From Eledone cirrhosa (Eukaryota), in contig OZ024764.1 in NCBI GenBank assembly GCA_964016885.1, forward strand, positions 11,036,001 through 11,100,000: a stretch of 64,000 nucleotides of DNA, in the 5' to 3' direction. Of the stretch, positions 12,774 through 44,606 are shown piece by piece. How positions within the stretch are numbered: position 1 is the stretch's first letter; each line of letters begins with the position of its first letter. The notes beneath the pieces were generated by a model that worked only from the letters and a program-made list of their open reading frames with translations, did no database searches and was not told the origin of the DNA. The translations under genes were made by a program, and so were the position numbers.

Positions 12774-12838
12774 TCATGGAATCGAGTGTTGTGGTGTCAG
12801 GCGGAGGAATATAGCCATGGAGTCTGCCATAGCTTTTC
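12774..12838 (-). CDS. Coding exon 5 (terminal): (G)KAMADSMAIFLRLTPQHSIP*
   Basis: TTACTTTCAG acceptor, phase 1 gives an open frame ending at TGA 12776-12774. AATAAA ~85 nt downstream. Confidence 0.85.
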
Positions 12839-14741: not shown

Positions 14742-14899
14742 CCTGCTGATATATGATCTTTGTATCCTTATCAGAATAGTAGAATGCAGGGAACGGGGGT
14801 GTGCGACCCCACTCACAACGTTGGTTACCTTCATTCATAGCCAACCAACCTTCATCGGCAAAACAATGTTTTGGATTTCCAATATAGAAACGGTGAAGA
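14742..14899 (-). CDS. Coding exon 4: (N)LHRFYIGNPKHCFADEGWLAMNEGNQRCEWGRTPPFPAFYYSDKDTKIIYQQ
   Basis: Polypyrimidine tract TCTTCTCTCTGCTTTTTCAATAG acceptor, GTAAGT donor, 158 nt, phase 2 to 1. Contained in ORF 14662..15009. Confidence 0.9.
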
Positions 14900-14924
14900 C
14901 TATTGAAAAAGCAGAGAGAAGATA

Positions 14925-17900
14925 CAAGATGGTTAGCTTTCTGTTTTATGAAGGGTCTAAGGTGTAGGAAATGTGTTTGGATGGGCATGGAAGGATTTGA
15001 TGTAACCAAGATGATTAGCTTTCTGTTTTATGAAGGGTCTAAGGTGTAGGAAATGTGTTTGGATGGGCATGGATGGATTAGATGTAACCAAGATGGTTAG
15101 CTTTCTGTTTTATGAAGGGTCTAAGGTGTAGGAAATGTGTTTGGATGGGCATGGATGGATTAGATGTAACCAAGATGGTTAGCTTTCTGTTTTATGAAGG
15201 GTCTAAGGTGTAGGAAATGTGTTTGGATGGGAATGGATGGATTAGATGTACCCAAGATGGTTAGCTTTCTGTTTTATGAAGGGTCTAAGGTGTAGGAAAT
15301 GTGTTTGGATGGGCATGGAAGGATTAGATGTAACCAAGATGGCTAGCTTTCTGTTTTATGAAGAGTCTAAGGTGTAGGAAATGTGTTTGGATGGGCATGG
15401 AAGGATTTGATGTAACCAAGATGATTAGCTTTTCTGTTTTATGAAGAGTCTAAGGTGTAGAAAATGTGTTTGGATGGGCATGGATGGATTTGATGTAACC
15501 AAGATGGTTAGCTTTTCTGTTTTATGAAGAGTCTAAGGTGTAGGAAATGTGTTTGGATGGGCATGGAAGGATTTGATGTAACCAAGATGGTTAGCTTTTC
15601 TGTTTTATGAAGAGTCTAAGGTGTAGAAAATGTGTTTGGATGGGCATGGATGGATTTGATGTAACCAAGATGATTAGCTTTCTGTTTTATGAAGAGTCTA
15701 AGGTGTAGGAAATGTGTTTGGATGGGCATGGAAGGATTTGATGTAACCAAGATGATTAGCTTTCTGTTTGTGAAGAGTCAAAGGTGTAGGAAATGTGTTT
15801 GGATGGGCATGGATGGATTAGATGTACCCAAGATGGTTAGCTTTCTGTTTTATGAAGAGTCTAAGGTGTAGAAAATGTGTTTGGATGGGCATGGATGGAT
15901 TAGATGTAACCAAGATGATTAGCTTTCTGTTTTATGAAGAGTCTAAGGTGTAGGAAATGTGTTTGGATGGGCATGGATGGATTAGATGTAACCAAGATGG
16001 TTAGCTTTCTGTTTTATGAAGAGTCTAAGGTGTAGAAAATGTGTTTGGATGGGCATGGATGGATTAGATGTAACCAAGATGGTTAGCTTTCTGTTTTATG
16101 AAGAGTCTAAGGTGTAGAAAATGTGTTTGGATGGGCATGGAAGGATTAGATGTAACCAAGATGGCTAGCTTTCTGTTTTATGAAGAGTCTAAGGTGTAGA
16201 AAATGTGTTTGGATGGGCATGGATGGATTAGATGTACCCAAGATGGTTAGCTTTCTGTTTTATGAAGAGTCTAAGGTGTAGAAAATGTGTTTGGATGGGC
16301 ATGGATGGATTAGATGTAACCAAGATGATTAGCTTTCTGTTTTATGAAGAGTCTAAGGTGTAGGAAATGTGTTTGGATGGGCATGGATGGATTAGATGTA
16401 ACCAAGATGGTTAGCTTTCTGTTTTATGAAGAGTCTAAGGTGTAGAAAATGTGTTTGGATGGGCATGGATGGATTAGATGTAACCAAGATGGTTAGCTTT
16501 CTGTTTTATGAAGAGTCTAAGGTGTAGAAAATGTGTTTGGATGGGCATGGAAGGATTAGATGTAACCAAGATGGCTAGCTTTCTGTTTTATGAAGAGTCT
16601 AAGGTGTAGAAAATGTGTTTGGATGGGCATGGATGGATTTGATGTAACCAAGATGATTAGCTTTCTGTTTTATGAAGAGTCTAAGGTGTAGAAAATGTGT
16701 TTGGATGGGCATGGATGGATTTGATGTAACCAAGATGATTAGCTTTCTGTTTTATGAAGAGTCTAAGGTGTAGAAAATGTGTTTGGATGGGCATGGATGG
16801 ATTTGATGTAACCAAGATGATTAGCTTTCTGTTTTATGAAGAGTCTAAGGTGTAGAAAATGTGTTTGGATGGGCATGGATGGATTTGATGTAACCAAGAT
16901 GATTAGCTTTCTGTTTTATGAAGAGTCTAAGGTGTAGAAAATGTGTTTGGATGGGCATGGATGGATTTGATGTAACCAAGATGATTAGCTTTCTGTTTTA
17001 TGAAGAGTCTAAAGTGTAGGAAATGTGTTTGGATGGGCATGGATGGATTTGATGTAACCAAGATGGTTAGCTTTCTGTTTTATGAAGAGTCTAAGGTGTA
17101 GGAAATGTGTTTGGATGGGCATGGCAGGATTTGATGTAACCAAGATGGTTAGCTTTCTGTTTTATGAAGAGTCAAAGGTGTAGGAAATGTGTTTGGATGG
17201 GCATGGATGGATTTGATGTAACCAAGATGGTTAGCTTTCTGTTTTATGAAGAGTCTAAGGTGTAGAAAATGTGTTTGGATGGGCATGGATGGATTTGATG
17301 TAACCAAGATGGTTAGCTTTCTGTTTTATGAAGAGTCTAAGGTGTAGAAAATGTGTTTGGATGGGCATGGATGGATTTGATGTAACCAAGATGGTTAGCT
17401 TTCTGTTTTATGAAGAGTCTAAGGTATAGAAAATGTGTTTGGATGGGCATGGATGGATTTGATGTAACCAAGATGGTTAGCTTTTCTGTTTTATGAAGAG
17501 TCTAAGGTGTAGAAAATGTGTTTGGATGGGCATGGATGGATTTGATGTAACCAAGATGGTTAGCTTTCTGTTTTATGAAGAGTCTAAGGTGTAGAAAATG
17601 TGTTTGGATGGGCATGGAAGGATTTGATGTAACCAAGATGGTTAGCTTTTCTGTTTTATGAAGGGTCTAAGGTGTAGAAAATGTGTTTGGATGGGCATGG
17701 ATGGATTTGATGTAACCAAGATGGTTAGCTTTCTGTTTTATGAAGAGTCTAAGGTGTAGAAAATGTGTTTGGATGGGCATGGATGGATTTGATGTCACCA
17801 AGATGGTTAGCTTTCTGTTTTATGAAGAGTCTAAGGTGTAGAAAATGTGTTTGGATGGGCATGGATGGATTTGATGTAACCAAGATGGTTAGCTTTCTGT

Positions 17901-20900
17901 TTTATGAAGAGTCTAAGGTGTAGAAAATGTGTTTGGATGGGCATGGAAGGATTTGATGTAACCAAGATGGTTAGCTTTTCTGTTTTATGAAGGGTCTAAG
18001 GTGTAGAAAATGTGTTTGGATGGGCATGGATGGATTTGATGTAACCAAGATGGTTAGCTTTCTGTTTTATGAAGAGTCTAAGGTGTAGAAAATGTGTTTG
18101 GATGGGCATGGATGGATTTGATGTCACCAAGATGGTTAGCTTTCTGTTTTATGAAGAGTCTAAGGTGTAGAAAATGTGTTTGGATGGGCATGGATGGATT
18201 TGATGTAACCAAGATGGTTAGCTTTCTGTTTTATGAAGAGTCTAAGGTGTAGAAAATGTGTTTGGATGGGCATGGAAGGATTTGATGTAACCAAGACGGT
18301 TAGCTTTTCTGTTTTATGAAGGGTCTAAGGTGTAGAAAATGTGTTTGGATGGGCATGGATGGATTTGATGTAACCAAGATGGTTAGCTTTCTGTTTTATG
18401 AAGAGTCAAAGGTGTAGGAAATGTGTTTGGATGGGCATGGATGGATTTGATGTAACCAAGATGGTTAGCTTTCTGTTTTATGAAGAGTCAAAGGTGTAGG
18501 AAATGTGTTTGGATGGGCATGGATGGATTTGATGTAACCAAGATGGTTAGCTTTCTGTTTTATGAAGAGTCAAAGGTGTAGGAAATGTGTTTGGATGGGC
18601 ATGGATGGATTTGATGTAACCAAGATGGTTAGCTTTTCTGTTTTATGAAGAGTCTAAGGTGTAGAAAATGTGTTTGGATGGGCATGGATGGATTTGATGT
18701 AACCAAGATGGTTAGCTTTCTGTTTTATGAAGAGTCTAAAGTGTAGAAAATGTGTTTGGATGGGCATGGATGGATTAGATGTAACCAAGATGGTTGGATT
18801 TCTGTTTTACGAAGAGTCTAAGGTGTAGAAAATGTGCTTGGATGGGCATGGAAGGATTTGATGTAACCAAGATGGTTAGCTTTCTGTTTTATGAAGAGTC
18901 TAAGGTGTAGAAAATGTGTTTGGATGGGCATGGATGGATTAGATGTAACCAAGATGGCTAGCTTTCTGTTTTATGAAGAGTCTAAGGTGTAGGAAATGTG
19001 TTTGGATGGGCATGGATGGATTTGATGTAACCAAGATGGTTAGCTTTTGTTTTATGAAGGGTCTAAAGTGTAGAAAATGTGTTTGGATGGGCATGGATGG
19101 ATTTGATGTAACCAAGATGTCTAGCTTTCTGTTTTATGAAGAGTCTAAGGTGTAGAAAATGTGTTTGGATGGGCATGGATGGATTTGATGTAACCAAGAT
19201 GATTAGCTTTCTGTTTTATGAAGGGTCTAAGGTATAGAAAATGTGTTTGGATGGGCATGGTAGGATTAGATTTAACCAAGATGGTTAGCTTTCTGTTTTA
19301 TGAAGAGTCTAAGGTGTAGAAAATGTGTTTGGATGGGCATGGATGGATTTGATGTAACCAAGATGGTTAGCTTTCTGTTTTATGAAGAGTCTAAGGTGTA
19401 GAAAATGTGTTTGGATGGGCATGGACGGATTTGATGTAACCAAGATGGTTAGCTTTCTGTTTTATGAAGAGTCTAAGGTGTAGAAAATGTGTTTGGATGG
19501 GCATGGATGGATTTGATGTAACCAAGATGGTTAGCTTTCTGTTTTATGAAGGGTCTAAGGTGTAGGAAATGTGTTTGGATGGGCATGGATGGATTAGATG
19601 TACCCAAGATGGTTAGCTTTCTGTTTTATGAAGAGTCTAAGGTGTAGGAAATGTGTTTGGATGGGCATGGAAGGATTAGATGTACCCAAGATGGTTAGCT
19701 TTCTGTTTTATGAAGAGTCTAAGGTGTAGGAAATGTGTTTGGATGGGCATGGAAGGATTAGATGTACCCAAGATGGTTAGCTTTCTGTTTTATGAAGAGT
19801 CTAAGGTGTAGAAAATGTGTTTGGATGGGCATGGAAGGATTAGATGTACCCAAGATGGTTAGCTTTCTGTTTTATGAAGAGTCTAAGGTGTAGGAAATGT
19901 GTTTGGATGGGCATGGAAGGATTAGATGTACCCAAGATGGTTAGCTTTCTGTTTTATGAAGAGTCTAAGGTGTAGAAAATGTGTTTGGATGGGCATGGAA
20001 GGATTAGATGTACCCAAGATGGTTGGATTTCTGTTTTATGAAGAGTCTAAGGTGTAGAAAATGTGTTTGGATGGGCATGGATGGATTAGATGTAACCAAG
20101 ATTGTTGGATTTCTGTTTTACGAAGAGTCTAAGGTGTAGGAAATGTGTTTGGATGGGCATGGAAGGATTAGATGTAACCAAGATGGTTAGCTTTCTGTTT
20201 TATGAAGAGTCTAAAGTGTAGAAAATGTGTTTGGATGGGCATGGAAGGATTAGATGTACCCAAGATGGTTAGCTTTCTGTTTTATGAAGAGTCTAAGGTG
20301 TAGGAAATGTGTTTGGATGGGCATGGAAGGATTAGATGTACCCAAGATGGTTAGCTTTCTGTTTTATGAAGAGTCTAAGGTGTAGGAAATGTGTTTGGAT
20401 GGGCATGGAAGGATTAGATGTACCCAAGATGGTTGGATTTCTGTTTTATGAAGAGTCTAAGGTGTAGAAAATGTGTTTGGATGGGCATGGATGGATTAGA
20501 TGTAACCAAGATTGTTGGATTTCTGTTTTACGAAGAGTCTAAGGTGTAGGAAATGTGTTTGGATGGGCATGGAAGGATTAGATGTAACCAAGATGGTTAG
20601 CTTTCTGTTTTATGAAGAGTCTAAAGTGTAGAAAATGTGTTTGGATGGGCATGGAAGGATTAGATGTACCCAAGATGGTTAGCTTTCTGTTTTATGAAGA
20701 GTCTAAGGTGTAGGAAATGTGTTTGGATGGGCATGGAAGGATTAGATGTACCCAAGATGGTTAGCTTTCTGTTTTATGAAGAGTCTAAGGTGTAGGAAAT
20801 GTGTTTGGATGGGCATGGAAGGATTAGATGTACCCAAGATGGTTGGATTTCTGTTTTATGAAGAGTCTAAGGTGTAGAAAATGTGTTTGGATGGGCATGG

Positions 20901-23900
20901 ATGGATTAGATGTAACCAAGATTGTTGGATTTCTGTTTTACGAAGAGTCTAAGGTGTAGGAAATGTGTTTGGATGGGCATGGAAGGATTTGATGTAACCA
21001 AGATGGTTAGCTTTCTGTTTTATGAAGAGTCTAAAGTGTAGAAAATGTGTTTGGATGGGCATGGAAGGATTAGATGTACCCAAGATGGTTAGCTTTCTGT
21101 TTTATGAAGAGTCTAAGGTGTAGGAAATGTGTTTGGATGGGCATGGAAGGATTAGATGTACCCAAGATGGTTAGCTTTCTGTTTTATGAAGAGTCTAAGG
21201 TGTAGGAAATGTGTTTGGATGGGCATGGAAGGATTAGATGTACCCAAGATGGTTAGCTTTCTGTTTTATGAAGAGTCTAAGGTGTAGGAAATGTGTTTGG
21301 ATGGGCATGGAAGGATTAGATGTACCCAAGATGGTTAGCTTTCTGTTTTATGAAGAGTCTAAGGTGTAGAAAATGTGTTTGGATGGGCATGGAAGGATTA
21401 GATGTACCCAAGATGGTTAGCTTTCTGTTTTATGAAGAGTCTAAGGTGTAGGAAATGTGTTTGGATGGGCATGGAAGGATTAGATGTACCCAAGATGGTT
21501 AGCTTTCTGTTTTATGAAGAGTCTAAGGTGTAGAAAATGTGTTTGGATGGGCATGGATGGATTAGATGTAACCAAGATGGCTAGCTTTCTGTTTTATGAA
21601 GAGTCTAAGGTGTAGGAAATGTGTTTGGATGGGCATGGAAGGATTAGATGTAACCAAGATGGTTAGCTTTCTGTTTTATGAAGAGTCTAAGGTGTAGGAA
21701 ATGTGTTTGGATGGGCATTGAAGGATTAGATGTAACCAAGATGGTTAGCTTTCTGTTTTATGAAGAGTCTAAGGTGTAGGAAATGTGTTTGGATGGGCAT
21801 GGAAGGATTAGATGTAACCAAGATGGTTAGCTTTCTGTTTTATGAAGAGTCTAAGGTGTAGGAAATGTGTTTGGATGGGCATGGAAGGATTAGATGTAAC
21901 CAAGATGGTTAGCTTTCTGTTTTATGAAGAGTCTAAGGTGTAGGAAATGTGTTTGGATGGGCATGGAAGGATTAGATGTAACCAAGATGGTTAGCTTTCT
22001 GTTTTATGAAGAGTCTAAGGTGTAGGAAATGTGTTTGGATGGGCATGGAAGGATTAGATGTAACCAAGATGGTTAGCTTTCTGTTTTATGAAGAGTCTAA
22101 GGTGTAGGAAATGTGTTTGGATGGGCATGGAAGGATTAGATGTAACCAAGATGGTTAGCTTTCTGTTTTATGAAGAGTCTAAGGTGTAGGAAATGTGTTT
22201 GGATGGGCATGGAAGGATTAGATGTAACCAAGATGGTTAGCTTTCTGTTTTATGAAGAGTCTAAGGTGTAGGAAATGTGTTTGGATGGGCATGGAAGGAT
22301 TAGATGTAACCAAGATGGTTAGCTTTCTGTTTTATGAAGAGTCTAAGGTGTAGGAAATGTGTTTGGATGGGCATGGAAGGATTAGATGTAACCAAGATGG
22401 TTAGCTTTCTGTTTTATGAAGAGTCTAAGGTGTAGGAAATGTGTTTGGATGGGCATGGAAGGATTAGATGTACCCAAGATGGTTAGCTTTCTGTTTTATG
22501 AAGAGTCTAAGGTGTAGGAAATGTGTTTGGATGGGCATGGAAGGATTAGATGTACCCAAGATGGTTAGCTTTCTGTTTTATGAAGAGTCTAAGGTGTAGG
22601 AAATGTGTTTGGATGGGCATGGAAGGATTAGATGTACCCAAGATGGTTAGCTTTCTGTTTTATGAAGAGTCTAAGGTGTAGGAAATGTGTTTGGATGGGC
22701 ATGGAAGGATTAGATGTACCCAAGATGGTTAGCTTTCTGTTTTATGAAGAGTCTAAGGTGTAGGAAATGTGTTTGGATGGGCATGGAAGGATTAGATGTA
22801 CCCAAGATGATTAGCTTTCTGTTTTATGAAGAGTCTAAGGTGTAGGAAATGTGTTTGGATGGGCATGGAAGGATTAGATATACCCAAGATGGTTAGCTTT
22901 CTGTTTTATGAAGAGTCTAAGGTGTAGGAAATGTGTTTGGATGGGCATGGAAGGATTAGATGTACCCAAGATGGTTAGCTTTCTGTTTTATGAAGAGTCT
23001 AAGGTGTAGGAAATGTGTTTGGATGGGCATGGAAGGATTAGATGTACCCAAGATGGTTAGCTTTCTGTTTTATGAAGAGTCTAAGGTGTAGGAAATGTGT
23101 TTGGATGGGCATGGATGGATTAGATGTACCCAAGATGGTTAGCTTTCTGTTTTATGAAGGGTCTAAGGTGTAGGAAATGTGTTTGGATGGGCATGGAAGG
23201 ATTAGATGTACCCAAGATGGTTAGCTTTCTGTTTTATGAAGAGTCTAAGGTGTAGGAAATGTGTTTGGATGGGCATGGAAGGATTAGATGTACCCAAGAT
23301 GGTTAGCTTTCTGTTTTATGAAGAGTCTAAGGTGTAGGAAATGTGTTTGGATGGGCATGGAAGGATTAGATGTACCCAAGATGGTTAGCTTTCTGTTTTA
23401 TGAAGAGTCTAAGGTGTAGGAAATGTGTTTGGATGGGCATGGATGGATTAGATGTAACCAAGATGGCTAGCTTTCTGTTTTATGAAGAGTCTAAGGTGTA
23501 GGAAATGTGTTTGGATGGGCATGGAAGGATTAGATGTAACCAAGATGGTTAGCTTTCTGTTTTATGAAGAGTCTAAGGTGTAGGAAATGTGTTTGGATGG
23601 GCATGGAAGGATTAGATGTAACCAAGATGGCTAGCTTTCTGTTTTATGAAGAGTCTAAGGTGTAGGAAATGTGTTTGGATGGGCATGGAAGGATTAGATG
23701 TAACCAAGATGGCTAGCTTTCTGTTTTATGAAGAGTCTAAGGTGTAGGAAATGTGTTTGGATGGGCATGGAAGGATTAGATGTAACCAAGATGGCTAGCT
23801 TTCTGTTTTATGAAGAGTCTAAGGTGTAGGAAATGTGTTTGGATGGGCATGGATGGATTAGATGTAACCAAGATGGTTAGCTTTCTGTTTTATGAAGAGT

Positions 23901-26900
23901 CTAAGGTGTAGGAAATGTGTTTGGATGGGCATGGAAGGATTAGATGTAACCAAGATGGTTAGCTTTCTGTTTTATGAAGAGTCTAAGGTGTAGGAAATGT
24001 GTTTGGATGGGCATGGATGGATTTGATGTAACCAAGATGGCTAGCTTTCTGTTTTATGAAGAGTCTAAGGTGTAGGAAATGTGTTTGGATGGGCATGGAT
24101 GGATTAGATGTAACCAAGATGGTTAGCTTTCTGTTTTATGAAGAGTCTAAGGTGTAGGAAATGTGTTTGGATGGGCATGGAAGGATTAGATGTAACCAAG
24201 ATGGTTAGCTTTCTGTTTTATGAAGAGTCTAAGGTGTAGGAAATGTGTTTGGATGGGCATGGATGGATTTGATGTAACCAAGATGGTTAGCTTTCTGTTT
24301 TATGAAGAGTCTAAGGTGTAGGAAATGTGTTTGGATGGGCATGGAAGGATTTGATGTAACCAAGATGGTTAGCTTTCTGTTTTATGAAGAGTCTAAGGTG
24401 TAGAAAATGTGTTTGGATGGGCATGGATGGATTAGATGTAACCAAGATGGCTAGCTTTCTGTTTTATGAAGAGTCTAAGGTGTAGAAAATGTGTTTGGAT
24501 GGGCATGGATGGATTAGATGTAACCAAGATGGTTGGATTTCTGTTTTATGAAGAGTCTAAAGTGTAGAAAATGTGTTTGGATGGGCATGGATGGATTAGA
24601 TGTAACCAAGATTGTTGGATTTCTGTTTTACGAAGAGTCTAAGGTGTAGGAAATGTGTTTGGATGGGCATGGAAGGATTTGATGTAACCAAGATGGTTAG
24701 CTTTCTGTTTTATGAAGAGTCTAAGGTGTAGGAAATGTGTTTGGATGGGCATGGAAGGATTAGATGTACCCAAGATGGTTAGCTTTCTGTTTTATGAAGA
24801 GTCTAAGGTGTAGAAAATGTGTTTGGATGGGCATGGAAGGATTAGATGTACCCAAGATGGTTAGCTTTCTGTTTTATGAAGAGTCTAAGGTGTAGAAAAT
24901 GTGTTTGGATGGGCATGGAAGGATTAGATGTAACCAAGATGGTTAGCTTTCTGTTTTATGAAGAGTCTAAGGTGTAGGAAATGTGTTTGGATGGGCATGG
25001 AAGGATTAGATGTACCCAAGATGGTTAGCTTTCTGTTTTATGAAGAGTCTAAGGTGTAGAAAATGTGTTTGGATGGGCATGGAAGGATTAGATGTACCCA
25101 AGATGGTTAGCTTTCTGTTTTATGAAGAGTCTAAGGTGTAGGAAATGTGTTTGGATGGGCATGGAAGGATTAGATGTAACCAAGATGGTTAGCTTTCTGT
25201 TTTATGAAGAGTCTAAGGTGTAGGAAATGTGTTTGGATGGGCATGGAAGGATTAGATGTAACCAAGATGGTTAGCTTTCTGTTTTATGAAGAGTCTAAGG
25301 TGTAGGAAATGTGTTTGGATGGGCATGGAAGGATTAGATGTAACCAAGATGGTTAGCTTTCTGTTTTATGAAGAGTCTAAGGTGTAGGAAATGTGTTTGG
25401 ATGGGCATGGAAGGATTAGATGTACCCAAGATGGTTAGCTTTCTGTTTTATGAAGAGTCTAAGGTGTAGGAAATGTGTTTGGATGGGCATGGAAGGATTA
25501 GATGTACCCAAGATGGTTAGCTTTCTGTTTTATGAAGAGTCTAAGGTGTAGGAAATGTGTTTGGATGGGCATGGAAGGATTAGATGTACCCAAGATGGTT
25601 AGCTTTCTGTTTTATGAAGAGTCTAAGGTGTAGGAAATGTGTTTGGATGGGCATGGAAGGATTAGATGTAACCAAGATGGTTAGCTTTCTGTTTTATGAA
25701 GAGTCTAAGGTGTAGGAAATGTGTTTGGATGGGCATGGAAGGATTAGATGTACCCAAGATGGTTAGCTTTCTGTTTTATGAAGAGTCTAAGGTGTAGGAA
25801 ATGTGTTTGGATGGGCATGGAAGGATTAGATGTAACCAAGATGGTTAGCTTTCTGTTTTATGAAGAGTCTAAGGTGTAGGAAATGTGTTTGGATGGGCAT
25901 GGAAGGATTAGATGTACCCAAGATGGTTAGCTTTCTGTTTTATGAAGAGTCTAAGGTGTAGGAAATGTGTTTGGATGGGCATGGAAGGATTAGATGTACC
26001 CAAGATGGTTAGCTTTCTGTTTTATGAAGAGTCTAAGGTGTAGGAAATGTGTTTGGATGGGCATGGAAGGATTAGATGTACCCAAGATGGTTAGCTTTCT
26101 GTTTTATGAAGAGTCTAAGGTGTAGGAAATGTGTTTGGATGGGCATGGAAGGATTAGATGTAACCAAGATGGTTAGCTTTCTGTTTTATGAAGAGTCTAA
26201 GGTGTAGGAAATGTGTTTGGATGGGCATGGAAGGATTAGATGTACCCAAGATGGTTAGCTTTCTGTTTTATGAAGAGTCTAAGGTGTAGGAAATGTGTTT
26301 GGATGGGCATGGAAGGATTAGATGTACCCAAGATGGTTAGCTTTCTGTTTTATGAAGAGTCTAAGGTGTAGGAAATGTGTTTGGATGGGCATGGATGGAT
26401 TTGATGTACCCAAGATGGTTAGCTTTCTGTTTTATGAAGAGTCTAAGGTGTAGGAAATGTGTTTGGATGGGCATGGAAGGATTAGATGTAACCAAGATGG
26501 TTAGCTTTCTGTTTTATGAAGGGTCTAAGGTGTAGAAAATATGTTTGGATGGGCATGGAAGGATTAGATGTAACCAAGATGGTTAGCTTTCTGTTTTATG
26601 AAGAGTCTAAGGTGTAGGAAATGTGTTTGGATGGGCATGGATGGATTTGATGTAACCAAGATGGTTAGCTTTCTGTTTTATGAAGAGTCTAAGGTGTAGG
26701 AAATGTGTTTGGATGGGCATGGAAGGATTAGATGTAACCAAGATGGCTAGCTTTCTGTTTTATGAAGAGTCTAAGGTGTAGAAAATGTGTTTGGATGGGC
26801 ATGGATGGATTAGATGTAACCAAGATGGTTAGCTTTCTGTTTTATGAAGAGTCTAAGGTGTAGAAAATGTGTTTGGATGGGCATGGAAGGATTAGATGTA

Positions 26901-32900: not shown

Positions 32901-35900
32901 ATGGTTAGCTTTCTGTTTTGTGAAGAGTCTAAGGTGTAGGAAATGTGTTTGGATGGGCATGGATGGATTAGATGTAACCAAGATGGTTGGATTTCTGTTT
33001 TATGAAGAGTCTAAGGTGTAGGAAATGTGTTTGGATGGGCATGGATGGATTAGATGTAACCAAGATGGTTAGCTTTCTGTTTTGTGAAGAGTCTAAGGTG
33101 TAGGAAATGTGTTTGGATGGGCATGGATGGATTAGATGTAACCGAGATGGTTGGATTTCTGTTTTATGAAGAGTCTAAGGTGTAGGAAATGTGTTTGGAT
33201 GGGCATGGATGGATTAGATGTAACCGAGATGGTTGGATTTCTGTTTTATGAAGAGTCTAAGGTGTAGGAAATGTGTTTGGATGGGCATGGATGGATTAGA
33301 TGTAACCAAGATGGTTAGCTTTCTGTTTTGTGAAGAGTCTAAGGTGTAGGAAATGTGTTTGGATGGGCATGGATGGATTAGATGTAACCGAGATGGTTGG
33401 ATTTCTGTTTTATGAAGAGTCTAAGGTGTAGGAAATGTGTTTGGATGGGCATGGATGGATTAGATGTAACCAAGATGGTTAGCTTTCTGTTTTATGAAGG
33501 GTCTAAAGTGTAGAAAATGTGTTTGGATGGGCATGGAAGGATTAGATGTAACCAAGATGGTTGGATTTCTGTTTTACAAAGAGTCTAAGGTGTAGAAAAT
33601 GTGCTTGGATGGGCATGGAAGGATTTGATGTAACCAAGATGGTTAGCTTTCTGTTTTATGAAGAGTCTAAGGTGTAGAAAATGTGTTTGGATGGGCATGG
33701 AAGGATTAGATGTAACCAAGATGGCTAGCTTTCTGTTTTATGAAGAGTCTAAGGTGTAGGAAATGTGTTTGGATGGGCATGGATGGATTTGATGTAACCA
33801 AGATGGTTAGCTTTTGTTTTATGAAGGGTCTAAGGTGTAGAAAATGTGTTTGGATGGGCATGGATGGATTTGATGTAACCAAGATGGCTAGCTTTCTGTT
33901 TTATGAAGAGTCTAAGGTGTAGGAAATGTGTTTGGATGGGCATGGATGGATTAGATGTAACCAAGATGGTTAGCTTTCTGTTTTATGAAGAGTCTAAGGT
34001 GTAGGAAATGTGTTTGGATGGGCATGGATGGATTAGATGTAACCAAGATGATTAGCTTTCTGTTTTATGAAGGGTCTAAGGTATAGAAAATGTGTTTGGA
34101 TGGGCATGGAAGGATTAGATGTAACCAAGATGGTTAGCTTTCTGTTTTATGAAGAGTCTAAGGTGTAGAAAATGTGTTTGGATGGGCATGGATGGATTAG
34201 ATGTAACCAAGATGGTTAGCTTTCTGTTTTATGAAGAGTCTAAGGTGTAGAAAATGTGTTTGGATGGGCATGGAAGGATTAGATGTAACCAAGATGGTTA
34301 GCTTTCTGTTTTATGAAGAGTCTAAGGTGTAGAAAATGTGTTTGGATGGGCATGGAAGGATTAGATGTAACCAAGATGGCTAGCTTTCTGTTTTATGAAG
34401 AGTCTAAGGTGTAGGAAATGTGTTTGGATGGGCATGGATGGATTTGTTGTAACCAAGATGGTTAGCTTTCTGTTTTATGAAGGGTCTAAGGTGTAGGAAA
34501 TGTGTTTGGATGGGCATGGATGGATTTGATGTAACCAAGATGATTAGCTTTCTGTTTTATGAAGAGTCTAAGGTGTAGAAAATGTGTTTGGATGGGCATG
34601 GAAGGATTAGATGTAACCAAGATGGCTAGCTTTCTGTTTTATGAAGAGTCTAAGGTGTAGGAAATGTGTTTGGATGGGCATGGATGGATTTGTTGTAACC
34701 AAGATGGTTAGCTTTCTGTTTTATGAAGGGTCTAAGGTGTAGGAAATGTGTTTGGATGGGCATGGAAGGATTAGATGTAACCAAGATGGCTAGCTTTCTG
34801 TTTTATGAAGAGTCTAAGGTGTAGGAAATGTGTTTGGATGGGCATGGATGGATTTGTTGTAACCAAGATGGTTAGCTTTCTGTTTTATGAACAGTCTAAG
34901 GTGTAGGAAATGTGTTTGGATGGGCATGGAAGGATTAGATGTAACCAAGATGGCTAGCTTTCTGTTTTATGAAGAGTCTAAGGTGTAGAAAATGTGTTTG
35001 GATGGGCATGGATGGATTAGATGTAACCAAGATGGTTAGCTTTCTGTTTTATGAAGGGTCTAAGGTGTAGAAAATGTGTTTGGATGGGCATGGATGGATT
35101 AGATGTAACCAAGATGGTTAGCTTTCTGTTTTATGAAGGGTCTAAGGTGTAGAAAATGTGTTTGGATGGGCATGGATGGATTAGATGTAACCAAGATGGT
35201 TAGCTTTCTGTTTTATGAAGGGTCTAAGGTGTAGAAAATGTGTTTGGATGGGCATGGATGGATTAGATGTAACCAAGATGGTTAGCTTTCTGTTTTATGA
35301 AGGGTCTAAGGTGTAGAAAATGTGTTTGGATGGGCATGGATGGATTAGATGTAACCAAGATGGTTAGCTTTCTGTTTTATGAAGGGTCTAAGGTGTAGAA
35401 AATGTGTTTGGATGGGCATGGATGGATTAGATGTAACCAAGATGGTTAGATTTCTGTTTTATGAAGGGTCTAAGGTGTAGAAAATGTGTTTGGATGGGCA
35501 TGGATGGATTAGATGTAACCAAGATGGTTAGCTTTCTGTTTTATGAAGGGTCTAAGGTGTAGAAAATGTGTTTGGATGGGCATGGAAGGATTAGATGTAA
35601 CCAAGATGGTTGGATTTCTGTTTTATGAAGAGTCTAAGGTGTAGAAAATGTGTTTGGATGGGCATGGAAGGATTAGATGTAACCAAGATGGTTAGCTTTC
35701 TGTTTTATGAAGAGTCTAAGGTGTAGGAAATGTGTTTGGATGGGCATGGATGGATTAGATGTAACCAAGATGGTTAGCTTTTCTGTTTTATGAAGGGTCT
35801 AAGGTATAGAAAATGTGTTTGGATGGGCATGGAAGGATTAGATGTAACCAAGATGGCTAGCTTTCTGTTTTATGAAGAGTCTAAGGTGTAGGAAATGTGT

Positions 35901-38900
35901 TTGGATGGGCATGGATGGATTAGATGTAACCAAGATGGTTAGCTTTCTGTTTTATGAAGAGTCTAAGGTGTAGGAAATGTGTTTGGATGGGCATGGAAGG
36001 ATTAGATGTAACCAAGATGGTTAGCTTTCTGTTTTATGAAGAGTCTAAGGTGTAGGAAATGTGTTTGGATGGGCATGGATGGATTAGATGTAACCAAGAT
36101 GGTTAGCTTTTCTGTTTTATGAAGGGTCTAAGGTATAGAAAATGTGTTTGGATGGGCATGGAAGGATTAGATGTAACCAAGATGGCTAGCTTTCTGTTTT
36201 GTGAAGAGTCTAAGGTGTAGGAAATGTGTTTGGATGGGCATGGATGGATTAGATGTAACCAAGATGGTTAGCTTTCTGTTTTATGAAGAGTCTAAGGTGT
36301 AGGAAATGTGTTTGGATGGGCATGGAAGGATTAGATGTAACCAAGATGGTTAGCTTTCTGTTTTATGAAGAGTCTAAGGTGTAGGAAATGTGTTTGGATG
36401 GGCATGGATGGATTAGATGTAACCAAGATGGTTAGCTTTTCTGTTTTATGAAGGGTCTAAGGTGTAGAAAATGTGTTTGGATGGGCATGGAAGGATTAGA
36501 TGTAACCAAGATGGCTAGCTTTCTGTTTTGTGAAGAGTCTAAGGTGTAGGAAATGTGTTTGGATGGGCATGGATGGATTAGATGTAACCAAGATGGTTAG
36601 CTTTCTGTTTTATGAAGAGTCTAAAGTGTAGAAAATGTGTTTGGATGGGCATGGATGGATTAGATGTAACCAAGATGGCTAGCTTTCTGTTTTGTGAAGA
36701 GTCTAAGGTGTAGGAAATGTGTTTGGATGGGCATGGATGGATTAGATGTAACCAAGATGGTTAGCTTTCTGTTTTATGAAGAGTCTAAAGTGTAGAAAAT
36801 GTGTTTGGATGGGCATGGATGGATTAGATGTAACCAAGATGGCTAGCTTTCTGTTTTGTGAAGAGTCTAAGGTGTAGGAAATGTGTTTGGATGGGCATGG
36901 ATGGATTAGATGTAACCAAGATGGCTAGCTTTCTGTTTTATGAAGAGTCTAAGGTGTAGGAAATGTGTTTGGATGGGCATGGATGGATTAGATGTAACCA
37001 AGATGATTAGCTTTCTGTTTTATGAAGAGTCTAAGGTGTAGGAAATGTGTTTGGATGGGCATGGATGGATTAGATGTAACCAAGATGATTAGCTTTCTGT
37101 TTTATGAAGAGTCTAAGGTGTAGGAAATGTGTTTGGATGGGCATGGAAGGATTAGATGTAACCAAGATGGTTGGATTTCTGTTTTATGAAGAGTCTAAAG
37201 TGTAGAAAATGTGTTTGGATGGGCATGGATGGATTTGATGTAACCAAGATGGTTAGCTTTCTGTTTTGTGAAGAGTCTAAGGTGTAGGAAATGTGTTTGG
37301 ATGGGCATGGATGGATTAGATGTAACCAAGATGGCTAGCTTTCTGTTTTGTGAAGAGTCTAAGGTGTAGGAAATGTGTTTGGATGGGCATGGATGGATTA
37401 GATGTAACCAAGATGGCTAGCTTTCTGTTTTATGAAGAGTCTAAGGTGTAGGAAATGTGTTTGGATGGGCATGGATGGATTAGATGTAACCAAGATGGTT
37501 GGATTTCTGTTTTATGAAGAGTCTAAAGTGTAGAAAATGTGTTTGGATGGGCATGGATGGATTAGATGTAACCAAGATGGTTGGATTTCTGTTTTACGAA
37601 GAGTCTAAGGTGTAGAAAATGTGTTTGGATGGGCATGGATGGATTAGATGTAACCAAGATGGTTGGATTTCTGTTTTATGAAGGGTCTAAGGTGTAGAAA
37701 ATGTGTTTGGATGGGCATGGATGGATTTGATGTAACCAAGATGGTTAGCTTTCTGTTTTATGAAGAGTCTAAAGTGTAGAAAATGTGCTTGGATGGGCAT
37801 GGAAGGATTTGATGTAACCAAGATGGTTAGCTTTCTGTTTTATGAAGAGTCTAAGGTGTAGAAAATGTGTTTGGATGGGCATGGATGGATTAGATGTAAC
37901 CAAGATGGCTAGCTTTTGTTTTATGAAGGGTCTAAGGTGTAGGAAATGTGTTTGGATGGGCATGGATGGATTTGATGTAACCAAGATGGTTAGCTTTTGT
38001 TTTATGAAGGGTCTAAGGTGTAGAAAATGTGTTTGGATGGGCATGGATGGATTTGATGTAACCAAGATGGCTAGCTTTCTGTTTTATGAAGAGTCTAAGG
38101 TGTAGAAAATGTGTTTGGATGGGCATGGATGGATTAGATGTAACCAAGATGATTAGCTTTCTGTTTTATGAAGGGTCTAAGGTATAGAAAATGTCTTTGG
38201 ATGGGCATGGAAGGATTAGATGTAACCAAGATGGTTAGCTTTCTGTTTTGTGAAGAGTCTAAGGTGTAGAAAATGTGTTTGGATGGGCATGGATGGATTA
38301 GATGTAACCAAGATGTCTAGCTTTCTGTTTTATGAAGAGTCTAAGGTGTAGAAAATGTGTTTGGATGGGCATGGATGGATTTGATGTAACCAAGATGATT
38401 AGCTTTCTGTTTTATGAAGAGTCTAAGGTGTAGGAAATGTGTTTGGATGGGCATGGATGGATTTGATGTAACCAAGATGTCTAGCTTTCTGTTTTATGAA
38501 GAGTCTAAGGTGTAGAAAATGTGTTTGGATGGGCATGGATGGATTTGATGTAACCAAGATGTCTAGCTTTCTGTTTTATGAAGAGTCTAAGGTGTAGAAA
38601 ATGTGTTTGGATGGGCATGGATGGATTTGATGTAACCAAGATGATTAGCTTTCTGTTTTATGAAGAGTCTAAGGTGTAGGAAATGTGTTTGGATGGGCAT
38701 GGATGGATTTGATGTAACCAAGATGTCTAGCTTTCTGTTTTATGAAGAGTCTAAGGTGTAGAAAATGTGTTTGGATGGGCATGGATGGATTTGATGTAAC
38801 CAAGATGTCTAGCTTTCTGTTTTATGAAGAGTCTAAGGTGTAGAAAATGTGTTTGGATGGGCATGGATGGATTTGATGTAACCAAGATGTCTAGCTTTCT

Positions 38901-41900
38901 GTTTTATGAAGAGTCTAAGGTGTAGAAAATGTGTTTGGATGGGCATGGATGGATTTGATGTAACCAAGATGATTAGCTTTCTGTTTTATGAAGGGTCTAA
39001 GGTATAGAAAATGTGTTTGGATGGGCATGGAAGGATTAGATGTAACCAAGATGGTTAGCTTTCTGTTTTATGAAGAGTCTAAGGTATAGAAAATGTGTTT
39101 GGATGGGCATGGATGGATTTGATGTAACCAAGATGGTTGGATTTCTGTTTTATGAAGAGTCTAAAGTGTAGAAAATGTGTTTGGATGGGCATGGATGGAT
39201 TTGATGTAACCAAGATGGTTAGCTTTCTGTTTTATGAAGAGTCTAAGGTGTAGAAAATGTGTTTGGATGGGCATGGATGGATTTGATGTAACCAAGATGG
39301 CTAGCTTTCTGTTTTATGAAGGGTCTAAGGTGTAGGAAATGTGTTTGGATGGGCATGGATGGATTTGATGTAACCAAGATGGTTAGCTTTCTGTTTTATG
39401 AAGAGTCTAAGGTGTAGGAAATGTGTTTGGATGGGCATGGAAGGATTTGATGTAACCAAGATGGTTAGCTTTCTGTTTTATGAAGAGTCTAAGGTGTAGA
39501 AAATGTGTTTGGATGGGCATGGATGGATTAGATGTAACCAAGATGGCTAGCTTTCTGTGTTATGAAGAGTCTAAGGTGTAGAAAATGTGTTTGGATGGGC
39601 ATGGATGGATTAGATGTAACCAAGATGGTTGGATTTCTGTTTTATGAAGAGTCTAAAGTGTAGAAAATGTGTTTGGATGGGCATGGATGGATTAGATGTA
39701 ACCAAGATGGTTAGCTTTCTGTTTTATGAAGAGTCTAAGGTGTAGGAAATGTGTTTGGATGGGCATGGATGGATTTGATGTAACCAAGATGGCTAGCTTT
39801 CTGTTTTATGAAGAGTCTAAGGTGTAGAAAATGTGTTTGGATGGGCATGGATGGATTTGATGTAACCAAGATGGTTAGCTTTCTGTTTTATGAAGAGTCT
39901 AAGGTGTAGGAAATGTGTTTGGATGGGCATGGATGGATTAGATGTAACCAAGATGGTTAGATTTCTGTTTTATGAAGAGTCTAAGGTGTAGAAAATGTGT
40001 TTGGATGGGCATGGATGGATTAGATGTAACCAAGATGGTTGGATTTCTGTTTTACGAAGAGTCTAAGGTGTAGAAAATGTGCTTGGATGGGCATGGAAGG
40101 ATTTGATGTAACCAAGATGGTTAGCTTTCTGTTTTATGAAGAGTCTAAGGTGTAGAAAATGTGTTTGGATGGGCATGGATGGATTTGATGTAACCAAGAT
40201 GGTTAGCTTTCTGTTTTATGAAGAGTCTAAGGTGTAGAAAATGTGTTTGGATGGGCATGGACGGATTTGATGTAACCAAGATGGTTAGCTTTCTGTTTTA
40301 TGAAGAGTCTAAGGTGTAGAAAATGTGTTTGGATGGGCATGGATGGATTTGATGTAACCAAGACGGTTAGCTTTCTGTTTTATGAAGAGTCTAAGGTGTA
40401 GGAAATGTGTTTGGATGGGCATGGAAGGATTTGATGTAACCAAGATGGTTAGCTTTCTGTTTTATGAAGAGTCTAAGGTGTAGAAAATGTGTTTGGATGG
40501 GCATGGATGGATTAGATGTAACCAAGATGGCTAGCTTTCTGTTTTATGAAGAGTCTAAGGTGTAGAAAATGTGTTTGGATGGGCATGGATGGATTAGATG
40601 TAACCAAGATGGCTAGCTTTCTGTTTTGTGAAGAGTCTAAGGTGTAGGAAATGTGTTTGGATGGGCATGGATGGATTAGATGTAACCAAGATGGTTGGAT
40701 TTGTTTTATGAAGAGTCTAAAGTGTAGAAAATGTGTTTGGATGGGCATGGATGGATTAGATGTAACCAAGATGGTTGGATTTCTGTTTTACGAAGAGTCT
40801 AAGGTGTAGAAAATGTGCTTGGATGGGCATGGAAGGATTTGATGTAACCAAGATGGTTAGCTTTCTGTTTTATGAAGAGTCTAAGGTGTAGAAAATGTGT
40901 TTGGATGGGCATGGATGGATTAGATGTAACCAAGATGGCTAGCTTTCTGTTTTATGAAGAGTCTAAGGTGTAGGAAATGTGTTTGGATGGGCATGGATGG
41001 ATTTGATGTAACCAAGATGGTTAGCTTTCTGTTTTGTGAAGAGTCTAAGGTGTAGGAAATGTGTTTGGATGGGCATGGATGGATTTGATGTAACCAAGAT
41101 GGTTAGCTTTCTGTTTTATGAAGAGTCTAAAGTGTAGAAAATGTGTTTGGATGGGCATGGAAGGATTTGATGTAACCAAGATGGTTAGCTTTCTGTTTTA
41201 TGAAGAGTCTAAGGTGTAGAAAATGTGTTTGGATGGGCATGGAAGGATTTGATGTAACCAAGATGGTTAGCTTTCTGTTTTATGAAGAGTCTAAAGTGTA
41301 GAAAATGTGTTTGGATGGGCATGGAAGGATTTGATGTAACCAAGATGGTTAGCTTTCTGTTTTATGAAGAGTCTAAAGTGTAGAAAATGTGTTTGGATGG
41401 GCATGGAAGGATTTGATGTAACCAAGATGGTTAGCTTTCTGTTTTATGAAGAGTCTAAGGTGTAGAAAATGTGTTTGGATGGGCATGGCAGGATTAGATG
41501 TACCCAAGATGGTTAGCTTTCTGTTTTATGAAGAGTCTAAAGTGTAGAAAATGTGTTTGGATGGGCATGGATGGATTAGATGTAACCAAGATGGTTAGCT
41601 TTCTGTTTTATGAAGAGTCTAAGGTGTAGAAAATGTGTTTGGATGGGCATGGATGGATTTGATGTAACCAAGATGGCTAGCTTTCTGTTTTATGAAGAGT
41701 CTAAGGTGTAGAAAATGTGTTTGGATGGGCATGGATGGATTTGATGTAACCAAGATGGTTAGCTTTCTGTTTTATGAAGAGTCTAAGGTGTAGGAAATGT
41801 GTTTGGATGGGCATGGAAGGATTTGATGTAACCAAGATGGTTAGCTTTCTGTTTTATGAAGAGTCTAAGGTGTAGAAAATGTGTTTGGATGGGCATGGAT

Positions 41901-44464
41901 GGATTTGATGTAACCAAGATGGTTAGCTTTCTGTTTTGTGAAGAGTCTAAGGTGTAGGAAATGTGTTTGGATGGGCATGGATGGATTTGATGTAACCAAG
42001 ATGGTTAGCTTTCTGTTTTATGAAGAGTCTAAAGTGTAGAAAATGTGTTTGGATGGGCATGGATGGATTTGATGTAACCAAGATGGTTAGCTTTCTGTTT
42101 TATGAAGAGTCTAAGGTGTAGGAAATGTGTTTGGATGGGCATGGAAGGATTAGATTTTAGCAAGATGGCTAGCTTTCTGTTTTATGAAGGGTCTAAGGTA
42201 TAGAAAATGTGTTTGGATGGGCATGGAAGGATTAGATGTAACCAAGATGGCTAGCTTTCTGTTTTATGAAGAGTCTAAGGTGTAGGAAATGTGTTTGGAT
42301 GGGCATGGATGGATTAGATGTAACCAAGATGATTAGCTTTCTGTTTTATGAAGGGTCTAAGGTATAGAAAATGTGTTTGGATGGGCATGGAAGGATTTGA
42401 TGTAACCAAGATGGTTAGCTTTCTGTTTTGTGAAGAGTCTAAGGTGTAGAAAATGTGTTTGGATGGGCATGGATGGATTTGATGTAACCAAGATGGTTAG
42501 CTTTCTGTTTTATGAAGAGTCTAAGGTGTAGGAAATGTGTTTGGATGGGCATGGAAGGATTAGATGTAACCAAGATGGTTAGCTTTCTGTTTTATGAAGA
42601 GTCTAAGGTGTAGGAAATGTGTTTGGATGGGCATGGAAGGATTAGATGTAACCAAGATGGTTAGCTTTCTGTTTTATGAAGAGTCTAAGGTGTGGAAAAG
42701 GGGTTTGGATGGGCATGGATGGATTTGATGTACCCAAGATGGCTAGCTTTCTGTTTTATGAAGAGTCTAAGGTGTAGAAAATGTGTTTGGATGGGCATGG
42801 ATGGATTAGATGTAACCAAGATGGTTAGCTTTCTGTTTTATGAAGAGTCTAAGGTGTAGAAAATGTGTTTGGATGGGCATGGATGGATTTGATGTAACCA
42901 AGATGATTAGCTTTCTGTTTTATGAAGGGTCTAAGGTATAGAAAATGTGTTTGGATGGGCATGGATGGATTAGATGTAACCAAGATGATTAGCTTTCTGT
43001 TTTATGAAGGGTCTAAGGTATAGAAAATGTGTTTGGATGGGCATGGAAGGATTAGATGTAACCAAGATGGTTAGCTTTCTGTTTTATGAAGAGTCTAAGG
43101 TGTAGAAAATGTGTTTGGATGGGCATGGATGGATTTGATGTAACCAAGATGGTTAGCTTTCTGTTTTATGAAGAGTCTAAGGTGTAGAAAATGTTGTTGG
43201 ATGGGCATGGATGGATTTGATGTAACCAAGATGGCTAGCTTTCTGTTTTATGAAGAGTCTAAGGTGTAGAAAATGTGTTTGGATGGGCATGGATGGATTT
43301 GATGTAACGAAGATGGTTAGCTTTCTGTTTTATGAAGAGTCTAAGGTGTAGGAAATGTGTTTGGATGGGCATGGAAGGATTAGATGTAACCAAGATGGTT
43401 AGCTTTCTGTTTTATGAAGAGTCTAAGGTGTAGGAAATGTGTTTGGATGGGCATGGATGGATTTGATGTAACCAAGATGGTTAGCTTTCTGTTTTATGAA
43501 GAGTCTAAGGTGTAGAAAATGTGTTTGGATGGGCATGGATGGATTTGATGTAACCAAGATGATTAGCTTTCTGTTTTATGAAGAGTCAAAGGTGTAGAAA
43601 ATGTGTTTGGATGGGCATGGATGGATTTGATGTAACCAAGATGGTTAGCTTTCTGTTTTATGAAGAGTCTAAGGTGTAGGAAATGTGTTTGGATGGGCAT
43701 GGAAGGATTAGATGTAACCAAGATGGTTAGCTTTCTGTTTTATGAAGGGTCTAAGGTGTAGGAAATGTGTTTGGATGGGCATGGATGGATTAGATGTAAC
43801 CAAGATGGTTAGCTTTCTGTTTTATGAAGAGTCTAAGGTGTAGAAAATGTGTCTGGATGGGCATGGATGGATTAGATGTAACCAAGATGGTTGGATTTCT
43901 GTTTTATGAAGAGTCTAAAGTGTAGAAAATGTGTTTGGATGGGCATGGATGGATTTGATGTAACCAAGATGGTTGGATTTCTGTTTTATGAAGAGTCTAA
44001 GGTGTAGAAAATGTGTTTGGATGGGCATGGATGGATTAGATGTAACCAAGATGGTTAGCTTTCTGTTTTATGAAGAGTCTAAGGTGTAGAAAATGTGTCT
44101 GGATGGGCATGGATGGATTAGATGTAACCAAGATGGTTGGATTTCTGTTTTATGAAGAGTCTAAAGTGTAGAAAATGTGTTTGGATGGGCATGGATGGAT
44201 TTGATGTAACCAAGATGGTTGGATTTCTGTTTTATGAAGAGTCTAAGGTGTAGAAAATGTGTTTGGATGGGCATGGATGGATTAGATGTAACCAAGATGG
44301 TTAGCTTTCTGTTTTATGAAGAGTCTAAAGTGTAGAAAATGTGTTTGGATGGGCATGGATGGATTAGATGTAACCAAGATGGTTGGATTTCTGTTTTACG
44401 AAGAGTCTAAGGTGTAGGAAATGTGTTTGGATGGGCTTGGAAGGATTTGATGTAACCAAGATGG
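14925..44464. repeat. 82-bp satellite array, ~360 copies, 29.5 kb (ATGGTTAGCTTTCTGTTTTATGAAGAGTCTAAGGTGTAGGAAATGTGTTTGGATGGGCATGGAAGGATTAGATGTAACCAAG)
   Basis: Period 82 measured (22151 to 22233). Uninterrupted head-to-tail with a handful of recurrent variant positions. Confidence 0.98.
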
Positions 44465-44606
44465 CAGTGTAAGTGCCATGAAGGTGCTTTTGTTGTTTGG
44501 TTGAAAGCGTCCATGCTTCACTGCCATATATTAGGGTTGGGGTCAGTTTATATTTAGGTATGTATGGTAAATAATTAAATAATATGAAGTTATAATAATC
44601 TCATAC

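What the first reader, a model, noticed from the sequence alone, without database searches (positions are those of the whole stretch)
14900..44606. An intact gene whose 29.7-kb intron is ~99% a single 82-bp satellite
Seen: exons 3 and 4 are phase-compatible and motif-continuous (FSIAGK|N|LHRFYI) across ~360 uninterrupted 82-mers, with only ~25 bp and ~140 bp of unique intron at the ends. The array starts and ends with the same CAAGATGG octamer. Inference: an ancestral intron of ~250 bp grew ~100-fold by microhomology-primed amplification of one internal segment while the ORF stayed intact. Established parallel: satellite-filled giant introns of Drosophila Y fertility genes. If expressed, the gene transcribes ~30 kb of satellite RNA.
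Basis: partly seen in the sequence, partly recalled or inferred. Interest (0 to 1): 0.75.

Follow-up and report, generated by a model that had tools for sequence, protein, structure and literature searches.

The report
Octopod intron swollen by local repeat
In an octopus-like animal, an intact gene that is spliced correctly has a 29,700-base intron that is 99% one 82-base repeat, found elsewhere only as 19 copies in the neighbouring twin gene; the repeat likely grew in place from the intron's own sequence, a known kind of overgrowth that is common in this genome.

Summary
Confirmed, but ordinary for this genome. Intron 3 (14900-44606, minus strand) is 29,707 bp; 360 units of an 82-mer fill 99.4% of it. 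One public-run contig joins all five coding exons at the predicted junctions, so the exon 3-exon 4 splice across the array is real. The 82-mer occurs only here (340 exact hits) and in the same intron of an adjacent, intact tandem paralog (19 hits), so the array predates the duplication; the paralog contrast is 17-fold, and the ~100-fold figure rests on an unseen single-copy ancestor. Diverged matches in intron 3 of 3 of 18 other paralogs point to local origin; the unit carries the intron's likely branch point. 116 unit types and triplicated blocks imply stepwise turnover. Tandem repeats cover about half of this chromosome, and 2 of 40 sampled 10-kb pieces are wholly one array. Closest known: chicken 'intron stuttering' and the human CACNA1C VNTR, not the megabase Drosophila Y loops. 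The scan had already noted many larger cases elsewhere in this genome. Side finding: exon 4 differs 21% between the twins against 6% in flanks.

The parts
48972..49296 (-). coding exon 1 (ATG at 49296; signal-peptide-like start and PAN/apple-like part, inferred from a homolog model)
   Evidence: (spliced contig 48972-49303, 0 differences)
47841..48019 (-). coding exon 2
44607..44764 (-). coding exon 3, ends in phase 2
14900..44606 (-). intron 3, 29,707 bp, GT..AG, spliced out in the X3 contig
44465..44606 (-). unique 5' part of intron 3 (142 bp; 8 differences and a 10-bp gap against paralog B)
14925..44464 (.). 82-bp minisatellite array, 360 units, 116 types, mean pairwise divergence 4.3%
14925..14932 (+). 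terminal octamer CAAGATGG (exon-4 side)
44457..44464 (+). terminal octamer CAAGATGG (exon-3 side), the 8-bp overhang beyond whole units
14932..14937 (-). GCTAAC branch-point-like motif in the last unit, A at -34 from the intron end (use as branch point inferred)
14900..14924 (-). single-copy pyrimidine tract and AG acceptor, 25 bp, identical in paralog B
14742..14899 (-). coding exon 4; 33 of 158 nt differ from paralog B
13105..14388 (.). 61-bp minisatellite (21 copies) in intron 4; 10 copies in paralog B; the same unit also at dispersed sites
12774..12838 (-). coding part of exon 5 with stop codon
45272..46218 (.). 189-bp repeat (5 copies) in intron 2

Best explanation
This is an intact, spliced gene whose third intron is 99% a locus-specific 82-bp minisatellite that likely arose from the intron's own branch-point segment and likely grew as a tolerated passenger. 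Shown: array, ORF, splice junction, confinement of the unit to this intron and the same intron of the adjacent tandem paralog B (19 units), diverged matches in intron 3 of older paralogs. Inferred steps: (1) a first tandem duplication between two 8-bp direct repeats 82 bp apart; (2) a short array was copied when the gene duplicated; (3) in gene A unequal exchange and slippage raised it to 360 units through single-unit, few-unit and 20-25-unit block duplications, with new variants spreading locally; (4) selection only kept the pyrimidine tract, AG and exon 4 single-copy, so the last unit supplies the branch point and exon definition picks the true sites over the internal look-alikes. The cost is roughly 28 kb of extra transcription per message, with no special machinery needed.
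For: Spliced contig with 0-1 differences per exon. Exact 23-mer: 359 genome hits = 340 in A + 19 in B, none elsewhere. B intact, same intron positions, intron 3 1,743 bp, same terminal octamers. nhmmer of a unit dimer over 58 loci plus the masked 264-kb region: 4 hits at E<=1, all downstream of exon 3 in 3 of 18 paralog loci (E 7e-7 to 0.06), none in 40 background pieces. YTRAY at -24 to -28 in 7 of 16 paralog intron-3 acceptors, three sharing the AAAGCTAAYC context of the unit. 116 unit types, similarity decaying with distance, variants found in A and not in B; three 20-25-unit blocks align at scores 27-28 against 11-17.5 in 12 block-shuffled controls. Satellite contig depths in three DNA-like runs fit hundreds of copies, not 19. 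Tandem repeats cover 54% of 20 sampled pieces of this chromosome and 26% of 20 elsewhere; 2 of 40 are wholly one array; a 16.3-kb array lies ~106 kb away. Most paralog loci hold other minisatellites.
Against: No read or contig spans the array or bridges its edges, so its exact length rests on the assembly; depth per assembled copy (2.8-8.4) is below that of exon-bearing contigs (7.8-12.5), so the array may be shorter or heterozygous. The spliced contig comes from a different sample than the DNA-like runs, whose array length is unknown, and all four runs are one study. Expansion in A versus contraction in B is inferred by parsimony. By a crude family-trained score the true splice sites are not the strongest: 38 of 1,096 AGs and 78 of 376 GTs in the intron score at least as high, so site strength alone does not explain correct splicing. 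Neutrality was not tested.
Confidence: 0.8

Rival explanations
1. The array has a regulatory role: its length or its splice-like motifs tune expression or splicing of gene A against gene B (delay, decoy branch points, optional 33-nt microexons).
For: 245 GCTAAC motifs in the array; an A-only variant in 78 units creates a donor-like site 33 nt after each unit's AG, and all 78 pseudo-exons are in frame and stop-free. Long CACNA1C VNTR alleles associate with lower expression in some tissues (PMC13131567 abstract).
Against: The one spliced contig includes none of them; the two 82-mer contigs in that run are unspliced tandem pieces. Fixed unit geometry makes the 78 cases one event, and in-frame plus stop-free has a chance of roughly 1 in 5 (my estimate). 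16 other paralogs lack the array.
Confidence: 0.08
2. The shared array is a recombination or conversion platform beside the fast-changing exon 4, helping swap or protect exon 4 between paralogs or alleles of a recognition protein.
For: Exon 4 differs at 33 of 158 nt (22 of 52 residues) between A and B against 116 of 2,047 in aligned non-coding flanks (p 8e-10) and 28 of 704 in other exons. The homolog model suggests a secreted PAN plus fibrinogen-like protein.
Against: Only 2 of 24 changed codons are purely synonymous, which fits selection on the protein without any swap; no closer donor of either exon 4 exists in the assembly (next best 59%, then 42% or less); exon 4 is also the most divergent core exon among paralogs that lack the array.
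Confidence: 0.06
3. Assembly artefact: the array is inflated, or joins exons of different paralogs.
For: No spanning read was available; depth per assembled copy is 1.3- to 3-fold below exon-contig depth.
Against: One contig carries A-type exons 1-4 together; 116 unit types with no exact repeat longer than 7 units; B alone would need 34-157x per copy, and three contigs have no B match at all; no gap in the window.
Confidence: 0.04
4. A true Y-loop-like gene with a dedicated long-transcription programme.
For: Intron 99.4% tandem repeat and spliced.
Against: About 30 kb, not megabases; complex 82-bp unit; autosome-like gene-rich setting with a normal twin; no AGGT ratchet motif in the intron.
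Confidence: 0.02

Closest known systems
'Intron stuttering' on chicken dot chromosomes (Hron et al. 2026, PMC12954441; abstract, first part of section 7 and passages read)
   Same: Locally expanded motif of tens of bases from originally unique intron sequence, confined between exons, coding region intact, on a small repeat-rich chromosome.
   Different: Here one regular array of 29.5 kb (their example intron is 1.6-2.9 kb), an invertebrate, and length variation between individuals is untested.
Human TRACT VNTR in CACNA1C intron (PMC13131567; abstract and introduction read)
   Same: Single intronic array of hundreds of variant units reaching ~30 kb in an expressed gene.
   Different: 82-bp not 30-bp unit; abuts the acceptor and likely supplies the branch point; has a 19-unit twin in a paralog; no functional data.
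Amphioxus 'mirage' minisatellites (PMC3087553, passages read) and human F7 IVS7 37-bp VNTR (PMC1557585, abstract)
   Same: Repeats copy a splice signal many times and normal splicing persists.
   Different: Those span the exon-intron boundary; this unit stops 25 nt short of exon 4 and copies only the branch-like motif; 360 units against 3-6 for the globin mirage.
Drosophila Y-loop genes kl-3, kl-5 (PMC6508621, abstract)
   Same: Satellite-filled intron that must be transcribed and spliced out.
   Different: Megabases of simple satellite, ~90 h spermatocyte programme and dedicated RNA-binding proteins; none shown here.
Uncharacterized Octopus/Argonauta protein family (e.g. LOC128251093, LOC106873068)
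   Same: 50-70% identity over exon 3, ~284-302 aa full-length members with the same C-terminal motif.
   Different: No named function; Pfam gives only sub-threshold PAN_3.

Membership tests
Intron stuttering (chicken dot chromosomes) | Repeat derives from local, originally unique sequence | tested here: met
Intron stuttering (chicken dot chromosomes) | Block stays within one intron; coding region intact | tested here: met
Intron stuttering (chicken dot chromosomes) | Enriched on small repeat-rich chromosomes | tested here: inconclusive
   54% repeat cover in 20 pieces of this 29-Mb chromosome, 26% in 20 pieces of others; introns not sampled as such
Intron stuttering (chicken dot chromosomes) | Intron length varies between individuals | not testable with these tools
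   only short contigs from one study
Large intronic VNTR (TRACT type) | Unit of 6 bp or more, hundreds of copies, 3-30+ kb, inside an intron of an expressed gene | tested here: met
Large intronic VNTR (TRACT type) | Variable copy number among alleles | not testable with these tools
   varies between paralogs (360 vs 19); alleles not seen
Mirage minisatellite | Unit spans an exon-intron boundary | tested here: not met
   25 single-copy nt separate the array from exon 4
Mirage minisatellite | Normal splicing persists despite repeated splice-like signals | tested here: met
   one contig
Drosophila Y-loop intron gigantism | Megabase introns of simple satellite | tested here: not met
   29.7 kb, 82-bp unit
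Drosophila Y-loop intron gigantism | Satellite intron is transcribed | tested here: inconclusive
   implied by the spliced junction; two low-depth 82-mer contigs in run X3 could be pre-mRNA or DNA carry-over
Drosophila Y-loop intron gigantism | Germline-specific long programme with dedicated RNA-binding proteins | not testable with these tools
   tissue of X3 not on record
Recursive splicing (ratchet points; AG-GT definition recalled) | Internal AG|GT sites | tested here: not met
   0 AGGT in intron 3 on the transcribed strand
PAN/apple domain (protein N-terminus) | PAN fold | tested here: inconclusive
   homolog P0003 model, mean pLDDT 65: Z 7.8, rmsd 2.5, 73 aligned to HGF N domain, many PAN rows; Pfam PAN_3 E 0.039, below cut-off; gene A itself not folded
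Fibrinogen-like (FBG) domain (protein C-terminus) | FBG fold | tested here: inconclusive
   Foldseek E 0.015-0.16, none at 0.001; VIA Z 3.4-4.9, tied with TLDc-domain rows at Z 4.2-5.3

The most novel reading that the evidence does not exclude
The array is a diversifier for a fast-evolving secreted recognition protein: it acts as a recombination platform next to the hypervariable exon 4, and a single base change that spread to 78 units has built a bank of in-frame 33-nt optional microexons that can add 11-residue inserts just before exon 4.
Probability: 0.06. Interest if true: 0.65.

Novelty: new member of a known kind. Interest (0 to 1): 0.27.

Why it matters
As a kind of thing it is known: locally grown intronic minisatellites of this size exist in humans and chickens, and this genome is full of long arrays. 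Its value is as a clean natural experiment. Two adjacent, intact twin genes share the same intron, ends and acceptor but carry 360 and 19 units, so the cost of 28 kb of repeat on expression and the choice of one branch point among ~245 copies can be compared directly. My three searches for octopus intron satellites (all terms required, open-access library only) listed no cephalopod paper, so the genome-wide pattern may be under-reported, but that interest belongs to the pattern, not this locus.

Tried and rejected
No RNA holder listed (run kinds not on record; X3 is taken as RNA only because its contig is spliced, and searches show no intronless copy in the assembly). The three DNA-like runs gave no cover over exon 4 and no contig bridging either array edge; the tool filters records, so this proves nothing. 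My first idea that the array avoids donor-like sites was wrong: it has no GTRAG but 78 GTACAT/GTATAT sites. One search's site scores included mis-picked donors and in-sample scoring; one search replaces them, and even that matrix rests on 35 acceptors and 19 donors. Survey of terminal overhangs in 52 other arrays: the version was buggy and dropped; the version gave 22 of 52 at 15 nt or less against 14.5 expected, weak and not independent, so no genome-wide microhomology claim. A suspected ~126-unit duplication (units 19-34 vs 145-158) scored 12, within the shuffled range. Pfam on the four exons and on 16 exon-3 translations: nothing credible. Exon 1 against longer proteins: 0 of 165 candidates. 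Foldseek: no match at E<=0.001. Exon 4 was not found in 2 of the 18 paralog loci fetched, which were left out of the intron sizes; 18 of the 36 other exon-3 matches were not fetched. Search of earlier notes by sequence: nothing. Supplements of the papers were not read; the chicken paper's gene lists there might hold larger arrays than the example I cite.
Full report
Observation. Tandem Repeats Finder gives one array at 14925-44464, period 82, 360.1 copies, 96% matches, and the window holds no N. It splits into 360 units plus a final CAAGATGG, the octamer that also begins it. On the minus strand five coding exons (49296-48972, 48019-47841, 44764-44607, 14899-14742, 12838 to the stop at 12774) form an open frame of 294 codons with GT..AG introns of 952, 3,076, 29,707 and 1,903 bp. 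Intron 3 is 99.4% array, with 142 and 25 unique bases at its ends. Full-length homologs of 284-302 residues from Octopus species and Argonauta support the gene model and place the genome among octopus-like cephalopods.

The splice is real. Four runs of one study hold exon 1; none has its kind on record. In run X3 a single 1,236-nt contig lies on exon 4 (record 124-282, 1 other letter), exon 3 (283-438), exon 2 (439-619) and exon 1 (620-951), the last three with no difference; its loose ends continue from exon 4 into this gene's exon 3 on one side and into exon 5 on the other. Because the neighbouring paralog differs at 8 of 158 exon-3 and 33 of 158 exon-4 bases, the contig is gene A throughout. 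It is one contig, of unknown tissue, from a different sample than the DNA-like runs.

Array size. No spanning read was available. For 13 of the 24 listed satellite contigs in the three DNA-like runs I matched each to the commonest fitting assembly sequence; depth per assembled copy was 2.8-8.4, against 7.8-12.5 for exon-bearing contigs, while the paralog's 19 units alone would need 34-157 for ten contigs and have no match for three. The tool warns that such depth is no copy number and these runs may be the assembly's own sample, so this only supports 'hundreds of copies'. The internal variety (116 types, no exact repeat beyond 7 units) also argues against inflation by assembly.

The genome search found the 82-mer 33 kb before the array. 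It lies in gene B (G000:C25:11013247-11028782, same strand), with the same exon lengths, intact frame and an intron 3 of 1,743 bp holding 19 units between the same octamers. An exact 23-mer has 359 genome hits, 340 in A and 19 in B. A and B differ at 5.7% of aligned non-coding bases. They share several unit variants, but A has variants absent from B (one in 78 units) and only 5 of B's 19 units are types found in A. So an array existed before the duplication and each copy then evolved apart; the measured contrast is 17-fold, and the 116-fold figure is against an inferred 257-bp single-copy intron.

Origin of the unit. The family has 38 exon-3 and 16 exon-4 matches at E<=1. I fetched 18 non-A/B loci; in 16 intron 3 measures 422-6,123 bp, median about 1.5 kb (automated boundaries). 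A unit dimer searched over these 18, 40 background pieces and the masked 264-kb region hit only three paralog loci, all downstream of exon 3; in one (L026) the related segment is itself a 50-bp repeat of 3.2 copies. On the transcribed strand the unit holds GCTAAC, a branch-point-like motif (consensus recalled); in the last unit its A lies 34 nt before the intron end, no such motif lies in the unique 25 nt, and 7 of 16 paralogs have YTRAY at -24 to -28. The unit is therefore most likely the intron's own branch-point segment, not a transposon piece. The 8-bp overhang fits a first duplication by microhomology; outgroups match it only in part, so that step stays inferred.

Growth. Mean pairwise divergence is 4.3%, lowest between neighbours; short higher-order runs recur; three blocks of 20-25 units align well above 12 shuffled controls. 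This is the pattern expected from repeated unequal exchange and slippage (established knowledge, recalled), not a single burst.

Splicing problem. The intron has 245 GCTAAC, 1,096 internal AG, no AGGT and no GTRAG. With a small family-trained matrix the true acceptor scores 5.1, the common internal AG 3.0-3.2, and 38 AGs score at least as high; the true donor scores 4.1 and 78 internal sites 6.9-7.2. Those 78 come from one A-only variant and define 33-nt, in-frame, stop-free pseudo-exons. The spliced contig uses none. Exon definition and position next to real exons most likely decide, as reported for repeated donors in human F7 (PMC1557585, abstract) and amphioxus mirages (PMC3087553, passages). 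Rare inclusion cannot be excluded, since contigs drop rare variants.

How unusual. Of 40 evenly placed 10-kb pieces, 2 are wholly one array and 4 hold an array of 5 kb or more; repeat cover averages 54% on this chromosome and 26% elsewhere; a 16.3-kb and a 7.9-kb array lie within 135 kb. Earlier unchecked notes of this scan describe many larger satellite introns in the same genome, some also built from splice signals; I tested only the general abundance. In print, chicken intron stuttering (PMC12954441; abstract, part of section 7, passages) and the 3-30+ kb CACNA1C VNTR (PMC13131567; abstract, introduction) are the closest kinds; the Drosophila Y-loop genes (PMC6508621, abstract) are far larger and specialised.

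The protein. No Pfam family passes. A model of homolog P0003 (mean pLDDT 65) matches PAN/apple domains at the N-terminus (Z 7.8, rmsd 2.5, 73 aligned) and only weakly fibrinogen-like or TLDc folds at the C-terminus; 500 clusters match the exon-3 profile. A secreted recognition protein is my guess. Exon 4 differs between A and B at 20.9% of bases against 5.7% in flanks (p 8e-10) and mostly changes residues (the last 23 coding bases of exon 5 were left out of the exon comparison), which suggests diversifying selection. Nothing ties this to the array except proximity.

Verdict. Observation confirmed and strengthened by a spliced contig; interpretation partly supported. A new member of a known kind, most likely a passenger. 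Interest 0.27.

Noticed in passing
window 14742-14899 vs G000:C25:11017636-11017793: Exon 4 differs at 33 of 158 nt and 22 of 52 residues between the tandem twins while flanks differ 5.7%; exon 2 has 12 replacement and 0 silent changes. Looks like diversifying selection in an uncharacterized, octopod-expanded secreted family.
   Followed up: partly
window 15171-42735: An A-only variant in 78 units creates a donor-like site that frames 33-nt in-frame, stop-free pseudo-exons; not seen in the one spliced contig.
   Followed up: partly
upstream of window 49303: The spliced contig has 285 nt beyond the first coding exon's acceptor, so at least one 5' untranslated exon is unmapped.
   Followed up: no
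window 47884 in run X3: A second contig (depth 3.9) carries the B-type base, hinting that paralog B is also present in that run.
   Followed up: partly
L026:6305-6464: A paralog on another chromosome has its own 50-bp x 3.2 repeat of the related intron-3 segment, an independent small amplification of the same seed.
   Followed up: partly
window 50165-54443: Nested array: runs of a 98-bp unit inside a ~900-bp higher-order repeat, upstream of the gene.
   Followed up: no
window 1098-2693 and 59374-60640: Duplicated segment with a 19-bp array and a donor-like site, about 58 kb apart.
   Followed up: no
window 54700-57800 and 61390-63320: Two LINE-like reverse-transcriptase copies in opposite orientation, 76% alike (identity; the LINE label is recalled from the sequence, not tested).
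   Followed up: no
L006-L012 and L017-L018 (within 100 kb of the window): Clusters of 84-bp-period C2H2 zinc-finger-like arrays (label recalled) flank the gene pair; the same 61-, 72- and 48-bp minisatellite units recur at many dispersed sites, unlike the locus-specific 82-mer.
   Followed up: no
G000:C25:11186542-11202821: A 16.3-kb array of a 49-bp unit about 106 kb from the 82-bp array.
   Followed up: partly
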